Assembly (NCBI GenBank): GCA_039812705.1
Contig: JBDIBA010000001.1
Location: 23,814-87,813 of the forward strand
DNA length: 64,000 nucleotides
Reading direction: 5' to 3'
Origin: Acidimicrobiia bacterium
Lineage (GTDB): Bacteria; Actinomycetota; Acidimicrobiia; Acidimicrobiales; JBBSGY01
Below are positions 3,289-30,052 of this stretch, one piece after another. A model generated the notes under the pieces. That model did no database searches. It had not been told where the DNA came from and worked only from the letters and a program-made list of their open reading frames with translations. The first letter of the stretch is position 1; every line of letters starts with the position of its first letter. The position numbers and the translations under genes were made by a program.

Positions 3289-4197
3289 ATGTTCGATACA
3301 ACTGGTGCCGTGACTTCCCGAATTACAAAAGCCGTTATCCCTGCGGCGGGCTTCGGTACCCGCTTTCTTCCAGCCACAAAGGCAACGCCAAAGGAAATGC
3401 TTCCTTTGATCGACAAGCCAACCATTCAGTACGTGGTCGAAGAGGCCGTGGCTGCCGGCATCGAAGACATCTTGATCATCACGGGTCGATCCAAGCGTTC
3501 GATCGAGGATCACTTTGACCGCGCTCCTGAACTTGAGGCCGCGCTTGCAGAAGGTGGCAAGCAGGAACAGTTAGACGAAGTTGTTGCGATTTCCGAACTG
3601 GCCAACATTCACTTCATTCGTCAAGGTGAGATGCGTGGTCTTGGTCACGCAGTCGGAATGGCTCGCCACCACATTGGCAATGAGTCCTTTGCCGTGTTGC
3701 TGGGCGACGACGTCATGCACCACTCGTCGACGGTGTTGAAGGACATGATTTCTGCGTCCGAGCGCCTCAACAAGTCCGTTGTTGCGTTGAAGGATGTTCC
3801 GCGCGAGGACATCAAGTCCTACGGTTGTGCGGCAGGTGAAGACGAGGGCGACGGTCTGGTCAAAATCACGGGCATTGTTGAAAAGCCCGAGCCCGCCGAG
3901 GCGCCATCAACCCTCGCGGTTATGGGTCGTTACGTGTTGACGCCTGACATCTTCGACATCCTCGAAAAGACCGAGCCGGGCAAGGGTGGCGAGATTCAGC
4001 TCACCGACGCGCTTGCGCAGCAGATGGCCGGCGGAAACCTCTACGGGAATGTCTTCACCAAGGGTCGTTTCGACATTGGTAAGAAGTTGGACTTCCTTCG
4101 CGCGACCGTTGAGTTGGCGCTCGATCGCGAGGACATTGCCGACGAGTTCCGTGCCTTCTTGCACGACGTTCTTGCTGGTAAGAGCGAGATCCGCTAA
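3289..4197 (+). CDS. galU: UTP--glucose-1-phosphate uridylyltransferase
   Basis: KAVIPAAGFGTRFLPATKATPKEMLPLIDKPTIQYVVEEA is the GalU signature, and the product is ~302 aa from ATG 3289. The track ORF begins at 3217, so the start is uncertain. Confidence 0.9.
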   Translation: MFDTTGAVTSRITKAVIPAAGFGTRFLPATKATPKEMLPLIDKPTIQYVVEEAVAAGIEDILIITGRSKRSIEDHFDRAPELEAALAEGGKQEQLDEVVAISELANIHFIRQGEMRGLGHAVGMARHHIGNESFAVLLGDDVMHHSSTVLKDMISASERLNKSVVALKDVPREDIKSYGCAAGEDEGDGLVKITGIVEKPEPAEAPSTLAVMGRYVLTPDIFDILEKTEPGKGGEIQLTDALAQQMAGGNLYGNVFTKGRFDIGKKLDFLRATVELALDREDIADEFRAFLHDVLAGKSEIR

Positions 4198-5021: not shown

Positions 5022-5465
5022 GTGATTTTCTTTGTTCTTGCGCTTATCTGGGCTGCTGCGCTTTTGCCGTCAATTCTGCGTGCGCGTGCCAACCGGAATC
5101 CGATCCACACGGTCGGTAAGTTTCGCAATCACCTACGAGTTCTTGAAAGCACGACGCCGAACATGCCTCGCGCGTGGGCACAAGAGGCGCTTCGCATGCG
5201 CCGTCGTCGCCGACAAGAACAAGTGCTTCGCACGCTTCTGGCGCTGTGTGCAACCACACTTGTTGCGGGACTGATTCTGGACTTCAGGTCGGTGTTGGTC
5301 TTGCATGTTGTGTGCGATGTTGCATTGGTTTGGTACGGCTACTCGCTGTTTGCCGCGCGTCGCCGTCGGCGTGTGCAGCGCCGTGTGCTTGAGCAGCACC
5401 ACACCTATGCCGAGGCCGCACAGTTCGAGCCCGAGGCAACGGTCGCATCCCAGTCGGGGATGTAG
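5022..5465 (+). CDS. Hypothetical membrane protein
   Basis: It has two or three hydrophobic helices (IFFVLALIWAAALLPSIL; LLALCATTLVAGLIL; VLVLHVVCDVALVWYGYSLF) separated by Arg-rich loops. I recognise no family. Confidence 0.5.
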   Translation: MIFFVLALIWAAALLPSILRARANRNPIHTVGKFRNHLRVLESTTPNMPRAWAQEALRMRRRRRQEQVLRTLLALCATTLVAGLILDFRSVLVLHVVCDVALVWYGYSLFAARRRRRVQRRVLEQHHTYAEAAQFEPEATVASQSGM

Positions 5466-5909: not shown

Positions 5910-8471
5910 TTACTCAGGAATGGTGAAGGCGCCCTTGAGGTTGTCGTGCCAACGCTCGTAGAACGACGCGTTGACCCTCAATCGCTCGCAAGTTTGGTCA
6001 ACAAGCTTCTGAGCCTGCGGCACCGGATGAGACTGTATAAACGCCTCGACTCGCTGTGCAAGTTCGGGATTGGCCTGAGCCGTTACCCCATCAAGCATGC
6101 GCGCAATCGAGTTGTCAGGGAATCGCTTGGCAAGCTCGCCCCAATGTTCCTCGCACCACTCCCACACGCGCGGGCCGCTTTCGCGACTACCGAGCATCGC
6201 GCGCAGCGTGTACGGGGCGTCTTGAGTGCGAACCGTCCCGTCAAGAATCATCTCAAGCGTGCGGTCGACCAGTCCGGGGGTGTCGAAGCTTGCGAACGCG
6301 CCCAACGCGTTGATGCGCGCCTGAGGCGTTTCGGACTCGTTCTGGAACGTGGTCACGAAGGTGGAGTAGTCGTCGTGGTTTCCAGTGGCAGCAATGGTTG
6401 CCTGCACCGCGTCGACCAGGTTGGTGTTCAGTGAACCGGGAACCTGTCGAAACGCCGCAAAACGGTGACGGGCTTCGGTGCGCACGTCTTCGTCTTCACC
6501 AAGGGTTCCCAAAGTACGAATCAACACGCCGCGAAGAGTCGCAAGTCTCTCGGACTCGCCGTTGTGCGGCTCCCAGCCAAGCCAGTCGTGCTGAGGGTTC
6601 GCCAGCGCGCGGACGAACGCTTTCAGCTCGGGTCGCTCGGAATCTGGAACGACCTTGTCGAGCATGCGCAACGGGCTGACCATTGCAGTCCAAACGCTGG
6701 GATCGTCATCGCCGCGATTGATCCAGAGCATTTGCAGCAGTTGTGGAACTTCACACTCGCCCGCAAGAGTTGCAGCCCAGGTGTCGTTGACGAGTGCAAA
6801 GCGCTCGAGCGAGTCAAGCGCATGCAGATTCGGAATCAACATGTCGAGCAGCTTGGGCTCATACGCCGCGCGGAAAAAGCCGTTACCGTGCTCGTTGAGC
6901 AGAACAAACTTTGGCTCGCCCGGAAGCTCGACAACGGTCTCGCGCTCCGTGAGGACGAGCTTCTCTTGATGCAGGTTGTCGCCGATCATTGTGCGAATGC
7001 CGATTGGAATGTGCCAAACGGCATCGTCATTGGTTGACAGATAGTTGAACCGCTTTTGAGTCAGTTTCAACGAGGTTCCGTTGTCGCCAAGTTCGGCGCG
7101 CACAATTGGGTGGCCGCCTTGGAAGATCCAGGTGTCCATCATTGCGCGGACAGGCTGTGCGCTTGATTCTTCAAGCGCATCCCACAAGTCAGTGGTTTCG
7201 GCGTTGTCGTAAGCGTGTTTGTGTAGATACGCGCTGATGCCAACGCTGAATTCATGCGCGCCGATGTGCTGTTCGAGCATGCGCAAAACCGCGCCACCCT
7301 TTTCGTACGTCAACAGGTCGAACATTCCTTGGGCTTCTTCCGGACGCACGACTTCGAACTCAATTGGTCGTGTGCTCGAAAGCGAGTCGACGCCTTGTGC
7401 GGCTGAACGACTGAGGCAGAACTCTGCCCAGCGGTCCCACTCGGGGCGGAAGTGGTCGACAAAAAGCAGTTCCATGAACGTCGCAAACGCTTCGTTTAGC
7501 CAAATGCCGTTCCACCACTTCATGGTGACCAGGTCGCCAAACCACATGTGCGCAATCTCGTGTGCAACAACGTCGGCAACACGCTCGACTTCAAGACGGC
7601 TTGCCTTTTCCGGGTCGACCAGAAGTGCGGTTTCGCGGAATGTCACACAACCAAGGTTCTCCATTGCGCCGAACGCAAAGTCGGGAATGGAGATGAGGTC
7701 GAGCTTGTCTCCTGGATACGGAATCTTGAAGTACTCGGCAAAGTAACGAAGCGCGGCAGTGCCCGTTTCGAGCGCGAAAGAAGTGAGGTTTTCCTTGCCG
7801 GGTGCACACGCAACGCGCAGCGGCACGCCGTCAACGTCAACGGGATCAGTGACAACGAATGGACCAACGATGAACGCAACCAAGTAGGTCGACATCTTCA
7901 TCGTGTCTTCAAACATCACCTGGCGCTTGCCGTTGCCAAGGTCAATGGCCGAACGCTCCGATGCATTGGAAAATGCCGCAAGGTTGTTGTCAACGATGAG
8001 CGTTACGCCATAGACGGCCTTGAAATCGGGCTCGTCCCAACATGGAAACGCACGTCGCGCGTCCGTCGCCTCGAATTGCGTCGTGGCGATGACGTGTTCG
8101 GTTCCTTGCTCGTCCTTAAAAGTGCTGCGATAAAAGCCGCGCAGCTTGTCGTTGAGGATGCCGGAGAAAGTAAGCGCAAGCGTGTAGTCGCCAACCTCAA
8201 GCGATTCTTCGAGAGCGATGGTTGCCGTTTCGGCTTCCTCGTCAATGCTCACCTGGCCGTCAAAGGCGTGGCCGCTGGCCGAGCGCACCTGTGCAGATTG
8301 AATGTCTAGCTCGGCCGCGTTGAGAACGATCGTGCGCGTGGATTCCTTGACTTCAATCTCGGTTCGCGACTCGCCTGTGAAGGTCGCGCTTGCGAGATCT
8401 GGGACCAGCGTTAGTTCGTAACGCTTGGGCAGGACTGCGCGAGGCAGGCGGAACGGATTGTGGTCAGCCAA
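5910..8471 (-). CDS. pepN: Aminopeptidase N (M1 family metallopeptidase)
   Basis: It has the GAMENLG exopeptidase motif and the HEIAHMWFGDLVTMKWWNGIWLNEAF zinc site (HExxH-x18-E). The 853 aa length is typical of actinobacterial PepN. Confidence 0.95.
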   Translation of the reverse strand: MADHNPFRLPRAVLPKRYELTLVPDLASATFTGESRTEIEVKESTRTIVLNAAELDIQSAQVRSASGHAFDGQVSIDEEAETATIALEESLEVGDYTLALTFSGILNDKLRGFYRSTFKDEQGTEHVIATTQFEATDARRAFPCWDEPDFKAVYGVTLIVDNNLAAFSNASERSAIDLGNGKRQVMFEDTMKMSTYLVAFIVGPFVVTDPVDVDGVPLRVACAPGKENLTSFALETGTAALRYFAEYFKIPYPGDKLDLISIPDFAFGAMENLGCVTFRETALLVDPEKASRLEVERVADVVAHEIAHMWFGDLVTMKWWNGIWLNEAFATFMELLFVDHFRPEWDRWAEFCLSRSAAQGVDSLSSTRPIEFEVVRPEEAQGMFDLLTYEKGGAVLRMLEQHIGAHEFSVGISAYLHKHAYDNAETTDLWDALEESSAQPVRAMMDTWIFQGGHPIVRAELGDNGTSLKLTQKRFNYLSTNDDAVWHIPIGIRTMIGDNLHQEKLVLTERETVVELPGEPKFVLLNEHGNGFFRAAYEPKLLDMLIPNLHALDSLERFALVNDTWAATLAGECEVPQLLQMLWINRGDDDPSVWTAMVSPLRMLDKVVPDSERPELKAFVRALANPQHDWLGWEPHNGESERLATLRGVLIRTLGTLGEDEDVRTEARHRFAAFRQVPGSLNTNLVDAVQATIAATGNHDDYSTFVTTFQNESETPQARINALGAFASFDTPGLVDRTLEMILDGTVRTQDAPYTLRAMLGSRESGPRVWEWCEEHWGELAKRFPDNSIARMLDGVTAQANPELAQRVEAFIQSHPVPQAQKLVDQTCERLRVNASFYERWHDNLKGAFTIPE

Positions 8472-27052: not shown

Positions 27053-27111
27053 TCGATCAATGCCCGTTGTTTGCTGAATCGATTTTGCAATGGGTTTGTA
27101 TCGTGTTGCTC

Positions 27112-27663
27112 ATGGATGTTTCAGAAGTATTGACTTTCCGACGCGTCCGCGACGCCGCAGATTTTGACGGTTTGCGCATTGCGGCCTTAGTGCCCGGACA
27201 TCCTGGTCATCCAGTTCGTTGGTCATATGACAACGCGCCTTCATCTGTTCACATTGGCGCCTACTTGAAGGACGAGTTGATCGGCTGCGTCAGCAGCTAC
27301 GACACGCGAGATCTCGATCCCGAGGCGCCGGCCTCGGTGCGCCTGCATTCAATGGCCATTGATGCATCGGTTCGCGGAATGGGATTGGGTCGCAAGCTGC
27401 TTGGCGAACTTGCCCGGGTGTTGCTTATCGAAGGTGGCGACTTTGAGATTCTTGAAGCCACCGCACGCGACTCGGCTGTCGGCTTTTACAACCGGCTCGG
27501 TTTTGAGCTTGGACCCAAGGGTCGTTTCGAGTTCAAAGAGACCGGTTTCGCAGCAAACTGGATCCAAATCTCTCGTGAGAAAATGGCCAGCTGCTTGCTG
27601 AGCGACCCTCTCAAGGTTTCCAGGTCACAAGTTCGTCCTGCGTGGTTTCCAGCAAGCGCTTGA
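27112..27663 (+). CDS. GNAT-family N-acetyltransferase
   Basis: It has the acetyl-CoA motif A MAIDASVRGMGLGRKLL and FYNRLGFE. ATG 27112 is preferred over the track start at 27067. Confidence 0.7.
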   Translation: MDVSEVLTFRRVRDAADFDGLRIAALVPGHPGHPVRWSYDNAPSSVHIGAYLKDELIGCVSSYDTRDLDPEAPASVRLHSMAIDASVRGMGLGRKLLGELARVLLIEGGDFEILEATARDSAVGFYNRLGFELGPKGRFEFKETGFAANWIQISREKMASCLLSDPLKVSRSQVRPAWFPASA

Positions 27664-27728
27664 TCCCACCGGGGTCATTGCGGTCACTATAGTTGGGGTT
27701 GGGTATCTACCCTTCGCGACTTCGCCGC

Positions 27729-27837
27729 ATCTGCGGGCTGTCTGCACAACCTTCAGGTGGTTGTGGGCTGCAAACCCATAAAACAGGTACGCCCTGCCTT
27801 TGGCGGGCGGGGGTTCGAATCCCCGCGCAGTTAGCCA
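27729..27837 (+). other. tRNA-like structured element (four consecutive hairpins, T-arm GGGG(G)-TTCGAAT-CCCC, ending ...GCGCAGTTA-G-CCA); identity unresolved
   Basis: The hairpins are CACAACC/GGTTGTG (loop TTCAGGT), (G)TGGG/CCCA(T) (loop CTGCAAA), CGCCC/GGGCG, and the canonical T-loop TTCGAAT at 27814-27820. The only 5' partners for the 3' strand are imperfect (CTGCG at 27731, or TCATTGCG at 27675), so I could not fold a canonical tRNA. Confidence 0.25.
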
Positions 27838-27918
27838 CTCAGGCGTCGGACTTCGGTCAGTGGGTGGAGGGCCTTGCGGGTTCACGCCCCCGCCTGATGC
27901 CCATGACGCCTGAGTGGC
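27834..27918 (+). other. Long hairpin with a perfect 14-bp basal stem
   Basis: GCCACTCAGGCGTC (27834-27847) is the exact reverse complement of GACGCCTGAGTGGC (27905-27918). The 57-nt interior contains a GAC-UUCG-GTC tetraloop hairpin and G-rich/C-rich partial pairing. It lies 24 nt upstream of the SPFH gene ATG. Confidence 0.5.
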
Positions 27919-27941
27919 AGCTGCAATGCCAAACTTCGCCA

Positions 27942-28676
27942 ATGGAAGCTCTCGTGACGATTGTTGTTCTCATGGTTCTCGGCGTGGTGCTTTTTGCGCT
28001 AACGCCCTTCAAGAAGTTTGTAGTTGAGGCCCATGAGCGTGGCGTGTTGTTCAAAAACGGCAGGTTCATTACCCAGTTCGAGGCGGGCAGACACTGGTGT
28101 TACGGCTTTGGCATGCGACTTGAGACCGTTGACCTTCGTCGCCGAACCGTAACTGTTCCTGGTCAAGAACTGATTACTGCGGACGGCGTGGGCATCAAGG
28201 TGTCGCTCGTGATGGAGTTCGAGGTGCGCGATGCGGTACTTGCCTTGATGGTCATGCAAGACTTTTATTTGGCGCTCTATTCGGCAGCACAGCTTGCGCT
28301 CCGCGATGTTGTGGCCGGCAAGACCCTTGACGAGGTGATGGCCGAGCGCAATCAATTCGGTGCGGCACTTGTTGAGCGCAGTGGACCAACGGCGGGTGAA
28401 TGCGGTGTCCGGATTGTCCGTCTGGAAGTCAAAGACATCATGTTGCCCAACGAGTTGAAGCGCATTTACAACCAGCTGGCCGAGGCCAAGCAAGAGGCGC
28501 TTGCAGAGTTGGAACGCGCCCGTGGCAGGGCTGCGGTGACCCGCAGCATGTTGAACACGGCAAAGCTCTACGAGGAGCACCCTCAGCTCGCTCAAATGCG
28601 CTTGCTCGACGCCGTTTCTCAGGGCGGCAACACCATTGTGGTGGGCACCAACGGCGTTGCCGACGTATTGCACTGA
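27942..28676 (+). CDS. SPFH/band-7 (stomatin/prohibitin-like) membrane protein
   Basis: It has an N-terminal TM segment (MEALVTIVVLMVLGVVLFAL). The SPFH core follows (VDLRRRTVTVPGQELITADGVGIKV...LRDVVAGKTLDEVMAERN...IVRLEVKDIMLP) with a coiled-coil tail. ATG 27942 was chosen because upstream in-frame codons cover the structured RNA-like region. Confidence 0.85.
   Translation: MEALVTIVVLMVLGVVLFALTPFKKFVVEAHERGVLFKNGRFITQFEAGRHWCYGFGMRLETVDLRRRTVTVPGQELITADGVGIKVSLVMEFEVRDAVLALMVMQDFYLALYSAAQLALRDVVAGKTLDEVMAERNQFGAALVERSGPTAGECGVRIVRLEVKDIMLPNELKRIYNQLAEAKQEALAELERARGRAAVTRSMLNTAKLYEEHPQLAQMRLLDAVSQGGNTIVVGTNGVADVLH

Positions 28677-30052
<1,376 letters not shown>

What the first reader, a model, noticed from the sequence alone, without database searches (positions are those of the whole stretch)
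27664..27941. 278-nt structured intergenic region: a tRNA-like T-arm and GCCA end without a canonical cloverleaf, fused to a hairpin with a perfect 14-bp stem
Seen in sequence:
- Between the GNAT gene and the SPFH gene there is a canonical T-loop (GGGG(G)-TTCGAAT-CCCC, 27809-27824), followed by GCGCAGTTA-G-CCA.
- The segment after the T-loop, about 13 bp of T-stem plus acceptor 3' strand with a G discriminator and encoded CCA, would fit a 9/4 or 8/5 acceptor/T arrangement.
- It is preceded by three further hairpins. One has a CTGCAAA loop (anticodon-like GCA), one has a TTCAGGT loop, and one is a variable-arm-like CGCCC/GGGCG stem.
- I could not find a well-paired 5' acceptor strand. The best candidates are CTGCG at 27731 and TCATTGCG at 27675, which imply lengths of ~107 nt or ~163 nt.
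- The GCCA overlaps the left arm of a hairpin whose basal stem is an exact 14-bp inverted repeat (27834-27847 / 27905-27918), ending 24 nt before the SPFH start codon.

Possible identities are a non-canonical long tRNA (selC-like or allo-tRNA-like), a YrlA-type tRNA-mimic ncRNA, a decayed tRNA or att remnant, or a cis-regulatory leader of the SPFH gene.
Basis: partly seen in the sequence, partly recalled or inferred. Interest (0 to 1): 0.55.

Follow-up and report, generated by a model that had tools for sequence, protein, structure and literature searches.

The report
tRNA-mimic RNA partnered with SPFH gene
The 278-base gap in front of the SPFH (band-7) membrane-protein gene is not a tRNA gene but one copy of a widespread, strongly conserved folded RNA with tRNA-like pieces that precedes this kind of SPFH gene, often next to RNA-repair enzymes or inside tRNA gene arrays. 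It was predicted once in 2016 and has not been studied experimentally, as far as the literature I could search shows.

Summary
The T-loop hairpin, the CUGCAAA loop and the exact 14-bp inverted repeat are all at the stated coordinates.

It is not a tRNA. ARAGORN finds nothing on this strand, and the Rfam tRNA-Sec model gives 29 bits against a threshold of 47.

The T-arm plus the long hairpin (27809-27925) form the conserved core of a structured RNA. That RNA lies directly upstream of every related slipin-type SPFH gene I could examine.
- A covariance model built from 17 sequences hit 79 of 84 SPFH loci. The other 5 have under 115 nt of upstream sequence.
- The window scores 86.8 bits (E about 1e-18).
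- Covariation is strong: 92% of cells are paired, against 41-52% in slid controls, and 31 of 33 pairs show compensatory changes.

In related loci the RNA-SPFH pair sits beside RtcB or RtcA RNA-repair genes, sometimes behind sigma-54-like promoters, or inside long tRNA arrays. [quoted passage not shown] I could not read that paper.

The anticodon-like arm is an optional module whose triplet varies between loci. The 5' part of the window's copy is specific to its lineage.

The likely role, by inference, is an RNA partner of SPFH in RNA-damage responses, analogous to Y RNA and Ro. A cis-regulatory leader remains a live rival.

The parts
27664..27736 (+). 5' part, specific to this lineage. It is an irregular hairpin closed by GCGG 27680-83 / CCGC 27725-28, with an apical GGGU-AUCU-ACCC hairpin at 27701-12. 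A second AUCU-loop hairpin, CCGC-AUCU-GCGG, lies at 27725-36; it reuses CCGC 27725-28 and is therefore an alternative to the closing helix.
   Evidence: Seen in the MFE fold and by reading the sequence. It looks like the consensus 5' domain by eye (N-AUC-U loop, UUCGCG..UUCGCC). However, the 5'-domain covariance model R2 does not match it, so homology is not shown.
27745..27765 (+). D-arm-like hairpin: CACAACC / GGUUGUG with loop UUCAGGU. It lies in the variable region.
   Evidence: It is not conserved in homologues.
27762..27780 (+). Anticodon-arm mimic: stem UGUGGG / CCCAUA, 7-nt loop CU-GCA-AA at 27768-74.
   Evidence: Similar CU-NNN-AA or UU-NNN-AA hairpins next to the T-arm occur in about 27 of 66 homologous RNAs, with at least 9 different triplets.
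27790..27809 (+). Variable-arm-like hairpin: CGCCC(U)GCC-UUU-GGCGGGCG. It lies in the variable region.
   Evidence: Read from the sequence. Only the outer CGCCC/GGGCG stem is confirmed; the 8-bp version with a bulged U was worked out by hand and is not reproduced by either MFE fold. Not conserved in homologues.
27809..27825 (+). T-arm mimic: GGGG-UUCGAAU-CCCC. This is the first conserved module of the family.
   Evidence: The loop consensus G-G-U-U-C-R-A-N-Y-C-C was found by pattern search in 55 loci. GGUUC, A and CC are invariant in the 29-sequence alignment. The stem covaries (helix 1).
27834..27918 (+). Conserved 3' domain, closed by the long stem P_L (27834-47 / 27905-18, 14 bp exact) and forming a three-way junction. 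Inside are: small hairpin H1 GGAC-UUCG-GUC (27848-58); arm P_M GUGGGUG / UGCCCAU (27860-66 / 27898-904); and the conserved box at 27868-96. The box comprises helix P_N GGGC / GCCU, the CUU bulge, the G27876-C27890 pair, and hairpin GGGU-UCAC-GCCC.
   Evidence: - Inverted repeat.
- The same architecture appears in independent MFE folds of about 27 of 29 homologues.
- RNAalifold consensus: 28 of 33 pairs compensatory.
- CM alignment of the window.
- Pair counts on 54 sequences.
- A strain SNP, A to G in the 3' arm, keeps U-A as U.G on the + strand.
27919..27941 (+). Short spacer between the RNA and the SPFH start codon.
   Evidence: Across 67 loci the distance from the end of the CM match to the start codon has a median of 19 nt. 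No terminator or promoter consensus was found here.
27942..28676 (+). Slipin-type SPFH / Band-7 gene (244 aa, N-terminal hydrophobic anchor). It is the invariable downstream partner of the RNA.
   Evidence: Pfam PF01145, E 2e-27. Apart from 99%-identical strains, the nearest homologues are 44% identical or less. The RNA precedes 79 of 79 homologous genes that have enough upstream sequence.

Best explanation
The intergenic region is one instance of a conserved structured RNA of roughly 120 to 330 nt. It is encoded on the same strand as, and immediately upstream of, a particular clade of slipin-type SPFH/Band-7 genes.

Its invariant core has two parts. The first is a hairpin that copies the tRNA T-arm. 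The second is a three-way-junction domain closed by a long stem, containing a nearly invariant internal-loop box (RGCY-n-UG-c-RgG ... ccY-C-C-Gc).

Upstream of this core, many copies carry further tRNA-like hairpins. These include an anticodon-arm mimic whose triplet varies between loci; the window's copy has GCA.

What is shown: the RNA is conserved, structured, strand-specific and always paired with the SPFH gene. It has a -10-like or sigma-54-like promoter just upstream in many loci, and I noticed no terminator before the SPFH gene (scanned formally only in the window).

What is inferred: it is transcribed as the 5' end of the SPFH (or SPFH-rtcBA) transcript, then acts as the RNA partner of the SPFH protein. 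The conserved 3' domain would bind the protein. The tRNA-like modules would present a tRNA mimic to RNA-repair or tRNA-damaging enzymes, as YrlA/Y RNA does with Ro60 in rsr-yrlBA-rtcBA operons.

In this genome the RNA-SPFH pair is a stand-alone two-part insert between mazG/GNAT and eno.
For: Match and association
- CM R1, built from 17 sequences, scores the window at 86.8 bits, E about 1e-18.
- It hits the + strand just upstream of SPFH in 79 of 84 SPFH loci. The 5 misses have 112 nt or less of upstream sequence.

Structure and strand
- On 54 sequences, 92.2% of cells are paired against 41-52% when partners are slid. The covariation score is 0.72 against 0.11-0.16. 31 of 33 pairs have changes on both sides.
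- Many G-U pairs, and the strain SNP, fit the + strand.
- Independent MFE folds give the same architecture.

Genomic context in homologous loci
- RtcB and RtcA follow SPFH in L084, L060, L053 and L036. In L047 RtcB precedes the RNA and RtcA follows SPFH. RtcB lies in the tRNA arrays that hold the module in about 9 further loci.
- A TGGCAC-N5-GTGCA sigma-54-type motif lies upstream of the RNA in L084, with a weaker TGGCAC-containing motif in L053.
- Extended -10-like boxes sit 6-12 nt upstream of the first helix in at least 14 loci.
- The module lies inside arrays of up to 20 tRNA genes.

Literature
- b7a-tRNA is described as a predicted ncRNA next to a Band-7 gene and RtcB, and as unvalidated (preprint 10.1101/312249).
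- An SPFH gene is embedded in the P. aeruginosa rtc locus (PMC13086221).
Against: - I could not read Burroughs and Aravind 2016, so identity with their b7a-tRNA is inferred from a second-hand description. That description says it 'strongly resembles an authentic tRNA'. The conserved core found here is a T-arm plus a non-tRNA domain, and tRNA models do not hit the homologues tested.
- No RtcB or RtcA lies in the 64-kb window.
- The consensus 5' domain is not detectable in the window.
- There is no expression, processing or binding data of any kind.
- The tight, constant spacing to the start codon fits a cis-acting leader as well as a separate ncRNA.
Confidence: 0.6

Rival explanations
1. It is a cis-regulatory 5' leader, a riboswitch or a protein- or tRNA-binding leader. 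The conserved three-way junction and box bind a ligand, a tRNA fragment or the SPFH protein itself. That binding controls translation or stability of the SPFH (and downstream rtc) mRNA, and no separate RNA product is involved.
For: - The RNA is always directly upstream of the gene and on the same strand.
- The promoter-like box is right before the RNA, and I noticed no terminator between the RNA and the gene (only the window was formally scanned).
- The RNA ends a median of 19 nt before the start codon, with the Shine-Dalgarno sequence immediately after the long stem.
- The nearly invariant internal loop is typical of a binding pocket.
- The conserved CCUCC in the box is anti-Shine-Dalgarno-like (read from the sequences).
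Against: - No conserved expression platform was found. The Shine-Dalgarno sequence lies outside the conserved structure, and no intrinsic terminator follows.
- The window copy has CCCCC instead of CCUCC and no recognisable Shine-Dalgarno sequence.
- tRNA-like modules and RtcB linkage parallel the trans-acting Y RNAs.
- Some array copies have about 97 nt and an extra hairpin between the RNA and the gene.
Confidence: 0.25
2. It is a tRNA-like processing or stabilising element. The T-arm and stems recruit RNase P, RNase Z or other tRNA-maturation enzymes. These cut the SPFH mRNA out of long tRNA-array or operon transcripts and leave a protective structured 5' end.
For: - About 24 loci place the module inside tRNA arrays, directly after tRNA-His and before tRNA-Cys.
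- The T-loop sequence is canonical.
- The mascRNA model, a tRNA-like 3'-end processing signal, gives 25.7 bits.
Against: - The T-arm is a free-standing hairpin. It is not stacked on an acceptor stem formed with the 5' end, so the RNase P substrate geometry is absent.
- Most loci, including the window, are not in arrays.
- This reading does not explain the large invariant 3' domain.
Confidence: 0.08
3. It is a functional non-canonical tRNA: a Sec-like, selC*-type or allo-tRNA with a Cys GCA anticodon that is aminoacylated and used in translation.
For: - The Rfam tRNA-Sec model aligns end to end at 27736-27836, with a 9-bp acceptor, a 6-bp D stem, a 6-bp anticodon stem, a long variable arm and a 4-bp T stem. 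Score 29.2 bits, local E 8.5e-4.
- Real Sec-like tRNA(GCA) genes exist in other Actinomycetota and Chloroflexota MAGs.
Against: - The score is below the gathering threshold (29 against 47 bits).
- There is a 3-nt insertion between the T stem and the acceptor stem, plus U.U and A.G mismatches.
- ARAGORN is negative.
- The acceptor 3' strand overlaps the conserved 14-bp stem.
- The discriminator is A or G, not the U73 of selC* tRNA-Cys (PMC5389517).
- The D, anticodon and variable arms lie in the non-conserved region, and tested homologues show no cloverleaf.
Confidence: 0.03
4. It is a decayed tRNA gene, or the att-site remnant of an integrated element.
For: - The GNAT-RNA-SPFH block is an insertion absent from relatives, which have mazG and eno adjacent or hold other inserts at this position.
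- The tRNA-like features are partial.
Against: - The T-arm and hairpin are under strong purifying and compensatory selection in 79 loci across a very wide GC range, 0.26-0.75.
- No second copy of the hairpin arm or T-arm sequence was found elsewhere in the window. The flanks were not searched for an integrase or for direct repeats.
Confidence: 0.02

Closest known systems
[quoted passage not shown]
   Same: - A predicted ncRNA with tRNA-like features, encoded next to a Band-7/SPFH gene.
- In homologous loci the pair sits beside RtcB and RtcA.
- No experimental validation.
   Different: - The window has no RtcB or RtcA within 64 kb.
- The conserved core defined here is a T-arm plus a three-way-junction domain, not a cloverleaf.
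- tRNA detectors and Rfam tRNA models do not recognise the homologues.
- I do not know whether the original description included the 3' domain, the tRNA-array context or the variable anticodon-like loops.
YrlA / bacterial Y RNAs with Ro60 (Rsr) in rsr-yrlBA-rtcBA operons
   Same: - An ncRNA with a tRNA-mimicking module plus a separate conserved protein-binding module.
- Encoded beside its partner protein gene and RtcB/RtcA.
- Sigma-54-type promoters in some loci (PMC7790460, PMC4201824).
   Different: - The partner is a membrane-anchored SPFH protein, not the Ro60 ring.
- No Y-RNA family appeared among the Rfam matches at E up to 10; I did not confirm which Y-RNA families Rfam 15 holds.
- The RNA precedes its partner gene at a fixed short distance.
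- No Ro-binding helix.
tRNA-Sec, selC* tRNA-Cys and allo-tRNAs (Mukai et al. 2017, PMC5389517)
   Same: Long variable arm, long D and anticodon stems, a GCA anticodon-like loop, and a sub-threshold match to RF01852.
   Different: - The acceptor/T geometry fails (9/4 with a 3-nt insert).
- The discriminator is wrong.
- There is no covariation support.
- The arms lie in a non-conserved part of a larger RNA.
[quoted passage not shown] 2021, PMC8421152)
   Same: Many homologues of the RNA-SPFH module are embedded in arrays of up to 20 tRNA genes that also carry RtcB.
   Different: - That work describes cyanobacterial arrays and does not mention an SPFH gene or this RNA.
- The window copy is not in an array.

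Membership tests
Canonical tRNA (Rfam RF00005 / ARAGORN) | A cloverleaf recognised by tRNA detectors; at least 29 bits for RF00005. | tested here: not met
   ARAGORN finds none at default settings, and none on the + strand at relaxed thresholds. Nothing reaches the gathering score. The best clan member is tRNA-Sec at 29.2 bits.
tRNA-Sec (RF01852) | Score at or above the 47-bit gathering threshold; a 13-bp acceptor/T branch (8/5 or 9/4); UCA or a recoded anticodon. | tested here: not met
   29.2 bits. The layout is 9/4 but with 3 extra nucleotides (GCG 27825-27) and two mismatches. The anticodon-like triplet is GCA. selA/B/D could not be tested because only 64 kb is available.
selC* tRNA-Cys | U73 discriminator, GCA or UCA anticodon, and an 8/4 acceptor/T structure (PMC5389517). 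| tested here: not met
   The GCA loop is present. The discriminator would be A27837 or G27834, and the geometry is not 8/4.
allo-tRNA | A 12-bp acceptor branch in 8/4 or 9/3 form, with a Sec-like D arm. | tested here: not met
   The best alignment gives 9/4 with a 3-nt insert.
YrlA / Y RNA | Encoded next to rsr (Ro60); a conserved Ro-binding helix; a tRNA-like domain. | tested here: inconclusive
   No Y-RNA family appeared in the Rfam scan at E up to 10; which Y-RNA families Rfam 15 holds was not checked. The neighbours are mazG, GNAT, SPFH and eno. No profile search for rsr was run on the rest of the window.
b7a-tRNA (Band-7-associated tRNA-like RNA) | A predicted ncRNA encoded adjacent to a Band-7/SPFH gene. 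| tested here: met
   It lies 23 nt upstream of the SPFH start on the same strand. The same holds in 79 homologous loci.
b7a-tRNA (Band-7-associated tRNA-like RNA) | Association of the pair with RtcB. | tested here: not met
   Not met in the window: tblastn finds no RtcB or RtcA. It is met in at least 14 homologous loci.
b7a-tRNA (Band-7-associated tRNA-like RNA) | 'Strongly resembles an authentic tRNA', and sequence identity with the published alignment. | not testable with these tools
   The paper is not held. The window has a canonical T-arm, an anticodon-like arm and a 29-bit Sec-like alignment. Homologues keep only the T-arm, with or without the anticodon-like arm.
SPFH-upstream RNA family as defined here (CM R1) | A T-arm hairpin, a long closing stem, a three-way junction and a conserved internal-loop box, directly upstream of a slipin-type SPFH gene. 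| tested here: met
   86.8 bits with a full-length match at 27809-27925.
SPFH-upstream RNA family as defined here (5' domain, CM R2) | A nested 5' hairpin: GCAGCC..[GGAAUCUCC loop]..GGUUCUGC. | tested here: not met
   R2 finds non-seed loci, but it finds nothing in the window even with filters off.

The most novel reading that the evidence does not exclude
The conserved core (T-arm plus three-way junction with an invariant internal loop) is a distinct, uncatalogued RNA class and not merely 'a tRNA-like RNA'. It would assemble with membrane-anchored SPFH cages into a ribonucleoprotein that senses or decoys tRNA damage. Its interchangeable CU-NNN-AA anticodon-arm mimics (at least 9 different triplets) would act as baits or competitive inhibitors for anticodon nucleases. 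That would link SPFH scaffolds, RtcB repair and horizontally mobile tRNA arrays into one tRNA-protection system.
Probability: 0.2. Interest if true: 0.8.

Novelty: new member of a known kind. Interest (0 to 1): 0.6.

Why it matters
SPFH/Band-7 proteins are ubiquitous, and their bacterial functions are poorly understood. An obligatory, highly structured RNA partner with tRNA-like modules would give a concrete handle on one clade. That clade is linked to RtcB/RtcA repair and to tRNA arrays.

It would also provide a second natural example, after Ro60-Y RNA, of a scaffold protein paired with a tRNA-mimicking RNA in RNA-damage responses.

As far as the literature I could search shows, the RNA has been predicted only once and never validated. 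It is not in Rfam, so genome annotation misses it.

Together these make the family directly testable, for example in the Pseudomonas aeruginosa rtc locus, which contains an SPFH gene.

Tried and rejected
- **Synteny with relatives.** MazG homologues at 58-66% identity have mazG next to eno, or other inserts. The intergenic region has no orthologue there, so that route gives no covariation.
- **Genome-contig scan with the SPFH protein.** It found no relative.
- **DNA pattern GGCTGCAAACC-N-GGTTCGAATCC in genome contigs.** It found genuine Sec-like tRNA(GCA) genes and cyanobacterial long tRNA-Cys-like genes. None is homologous to the window element.
- **The same pattern and a T-loop+box pattern in viral contigs.** Nothing found.
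- **Phage and plasmid collections searched with the SPFH protein.** No phage hits. Plasmid hits are only distant generic slipins, 34% identity or less.
- **PADLOC and NCBIfam.** No specific family for the SPFH or GNAT proteins.
- **GNAT as part of the module.** Rejected: it is found only in the near-identical strains.
- **5'-domain model R2 on the window.** No match.
- **Promoter and terminator consensus in the window.** None found.
- **Riboswitch-discovery papers and the tRNA-array paper.** No mention of SPFH or this motif.
- **Reading Burroughs and Aravind 2016.** Not held.
Full report
**Observation**

- T-arm-like hairpin: GGGG-UUCGAAU-CCCC at 27810-24.
- CUGCAAA loop at 27768-74.
- UUCAGGU loop at 27752-58.
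- CGCCC/GGGCG stem at 27790-94 / 27805-09.
- An exact 14-bp inverted repeat at 27834-47 / 27905-18.

The flanking genes are as follows.
- mfd and a TP-methylase-MazG fusion.
- A GNAT acetyltransferase ending at 27663.
- An SPFH/Band-7 gene starting at 27942.
- Then eno, divIC and DUF501.

The + strand folds better than all 200 shuffles, z = -3.56.

**Is it a tRNA?**

No.
- ARAGORN reports three tRNAs in the window, none here. Relaxing its thresholds does not recover one on the + strand.
- Rfam at gathering thresholds finds nothing here.
- At permissive thresholds the best match is tRNA-Sec at 27736-27836, 29.2 bits against a threshold of 47.
- That alignment has a 9-bp acceptor with a U.U mismatch and a 6-bp D stem with an A.G mismatch. 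It also has a 6-bp anticodon stem with loop CU-GCA-AA, a long variable arm and a 4-bp T stem. Three extra nucleotides sit before the acceptor 3' strand.
- The acceptor 3' strand overlaps the 14-bp stem.
- The features that define selC* tRNA-Cys and allo-tRNAs are not met: U73, and 8/4 or 9/3 geometry (PMC5389517).

**Relatives of the organism**

MazG homologues place the window in Acidimicrobiia, and the nearest are only 58-66% identical. In those contigs mazG is followed directly by eno, or by unrelated inserts such as a ChaB protein or a 480-aa protein of unknown function.

So the GNAT-RNA-SPFH block is a lineage-specific insertion, and the orthologous region cannot provide covariation. Two metagenome contigs carry the same block at about 99% identity. 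Of three SNPs, one lies in the 3' arm of the long stem and turns U-A into U.G. That change is tolerated only if the + strand is the RNA.

**The turning point**

The SPFH protein has no close homologues beyond those strains; the next are 44% identical.

I looked upstream of three such distant homologues (L017, L018, and L019 from an Anaerolineales MAG). Each has the same two motifs: a GGGUUCAAnUCCC hairpin, and a long hairpin containing GCCUUGCRGGUUMAGACCYCCGC.

A metagenome scan with an SPFH alignment returned 80 further loci. Of these, 55 have a GGTTCRANYCY motif 80-340 nt upstream of the gene. In 27 of the 31 compact copies measured, the T-loop lies 122-161 nt before the estimated start codon. 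The outliers had unreliable start estimates.

**Structure and covariation**

Independent MFE folds of 29 such regions give the same 3' architecture in about 27 of them.
- A T-arm hairpin.
- A long outer stem of 12-20 bp, whose sequence differs completely between loci.
- That stem closes a three-way junction.
- One arm is a small hairpin.
- The other arm leads to a short GGC(C)/G(G)CC helix, a CYU bulge, an invariant G-C pair, and an RGG(U)/(A)CCY hairpin.

RNAalifold on 17 sequences recovers 33 pairs, 28 of them with compensatory changes.

A covariance model from that alignment (R1) finds a match on the SPFH strand just upstream of the gene in 79 of 84 SPFH loci. The five misses have only 9-112 nt of upstream sequence. 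Control loci give only weak hits on real tRNA T-arms. The window scores 86.8 bits.

On a 54-sequence model-based alignment the counts are as follows.
- 92.2% of cells are paired, against 41-52% with partners slid by 1-3 columns.
- The covariation score is 0.72, against 0.11-0.16.
- 31 of 33 pairs have changes on both sides.

This alignment is fitted to the model, which favours the structure. The unfitted MAFFT/RNAalifold result and the single-sequence folds agree with it.

The hits span GC contents of 0.26 to 0.75, which suggests a wide phylogenetic spread. No Rfam family matches representative loci at E up to 1-5.

**Other parts of the RNA**

Most compact copies have a 5' domain. It is a nested hairpin with GCAGCC...GGUUCUGC and an apical GG-NAUCU-CC loop, and its pairs covary.

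A model of that domain (R2) finds non-seed loci but not the window, even with filters off. The window's 5' part (27664-27736) is therefore divergent, or specific to its lineage.

Between the 5' domain and the T-arm lies a variable region. In about 27 of 66 copies it contains a hairpin with a tRNA-like 7-nt loop, CU-NNN-AA or UU-NNN-AA. The triplet varies: CAU, GAU, GAC, GAA, GAG, GCA, GUA, UAA and AAU.

The window's GCA loop is one of these. Its D-like and variable-arm-like hairpins have no counterpart elsewhere. This is why only the window gives a Sec-like cloverleaf alignment.

**Context and identity**

In about 24 loci the RNA-SPFH pair sits inside tRNA arrays. L075, for example, has 20 tRNA genes in 5.7 kb. 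There the RNA and SPFH lie between tRNA-His and tRNA-Cys.

RNA-repair genes are linked as follows.
- L084, L060, L053 and L036: SPFH is followed by RtcB, then RtcA.
- L047: RtcB comes first, then the RNA, SPFH and RtcA.
- About 9 array loci also carry RtcB.

L084 has a TGGCAC-N5-GTGCA sigma-54-type motif just upstream of the RNA, and L053 has a weaker TGGCAC-containing motif. At least 14 other loci have extended -10-like boxes 6-12 nt before the first helix.

The RNA ends a median of 19 nt before the start codon.

[quoted passage not shown] It is described in preprint 10.1101/312249. From memory, their abstract speaks of SPFH/Band-7 scaffolds with 'a novel tRNA-like molecule'.

I could not obtain the paper itself. 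A 2026 paper notes an SPFH gene (PaFlo8) inside the P. aeruginosa rtc locus.

The window contains no RtcB or RtcA. Its GNAT neighbour is not part of the module elsewhere.

**Mechanism**

Shown:
- A conserved, strand-specific, structured RNA, invariably paired with this SPFH clade.
- It is positioned to be co-transcribed with the gene.
- It carries a canonical T-arm, and often an anticodon-arm mimic.

Inferred:
- It is the RNA partner of the SPFH protein.
- The invariant 3' domain is the likely protein-binding module.
- The tRNA-like modules mimic tRNA towards repair or damage enzymes, by analogy with Ro60-YrlA in rsr-yrlBA-rtcBA operons (PMC7790460, PMC4201824).

The main rival is a purely cis-acting leader. 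The fixed short distance to the ribosome-binding site and the binding-pocket-like box favour it. I found no expression platform.

**Verdict**

The tRNA readings are rejected. The tRNA-mimic and SPFH-leader readings are essentially right.

The element is a new member, in Acidimicrobiia and without an adjacent rtc gene, of a known but obscure RNA family that has not been tested experimentally, as far as I could find.
- a covariation-supported structure;
- a search model;
- the links to tRNA arrays and to variable anticodon-like loops.

Noticed in passing
window 5141-5223 (-): ARAGORN calls an 83-nt tRNA-Arg(gcg) with the anticodon at position 29. Rfam gives no tRNA match at the gathering threshold, and the sequence has no T-loop. 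It is probably a false positive.
   Followed up: partly
L005 4602-4691, L006 ~3674-3765, L011 ~2429-2522, L014 (- strand, ~6880-6980): These are Sec-like tRNA genes with a Cys GCA anticodon: an 8-bp acceptor, a long variable arm, and 48.9 bits to RF01852 in L005. They occur in Actinomycetes, Ca. Aquicultor and Anaerolineae MAGs; three of the four (L005, L006, L011) lie 1-1.5 kb from tmRNA. They resemble the sense-codon tRNA-Sec and selC*-type genes of Mukai et al.
   Followed up: partly
L012 3275-3325 (-) and L013 7361-7414 (+): Cyanobacterial loci (Nodosilinea and a MAG) hold a long tRNA-Cys(GCA)-like gene directly beside an RtcB homologue. L012 carries a dense array of about 20 tRNA genes; L013 has only two tRNA hits. 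This is a different tRNA-like element with the same RtcB theme.
   Followed up: no
L084 2155-2176; L053 1881-1900; L060: L084 has a sigma-54-type promoter motif (TGGCAC-N5-GTGCA) immediately upstream of the RNA in an RNA-SPFH-RtcB-RtcA operon, which suggests RtcR-type control. L053 and L060 have a weaker TGGCAC-containing motif.
   Followed up: partly
L024, L026, L027, L032, L062 (between the RNA and the SPFH start): A subgroup of the array-type copies has about 97 extra nucleotides before the start codon. These include another T-loop-like hairpin (CCGGUUCGAACCGG).
   Followed up: no
L062, L066, L069, L075, L090, L097 (tRNA arrays): The arrays contain unusually long predicted tRNAs: tRNA-Ile(tat) of 92 nt and tRNA-Thr of 86-88 nt. 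These may have long variable arms or inserts.
   Followed up: no
window 27053-28697 compared with L003, L004 and the P0103 contig: The mazG-eno junction is an insertion hot spot in this Acidimicrobiia group. Different lineages have nothing there, a ChaB-like gene, a 480-aa gene of unknown function, or GNAT+RNA+SPFH.
   Followed up: partly
window 27701-12 and 27725-36: Two neighbouring hairpins, GGGU-AUCU-ACCC and CCGC-AUCU-GCGG, share the same AUCU tetraloop. This echoes the N-AUC-U apical loop of the consensus 5' domain, although the 5'-domain model does not match here.
   Followed up: partly
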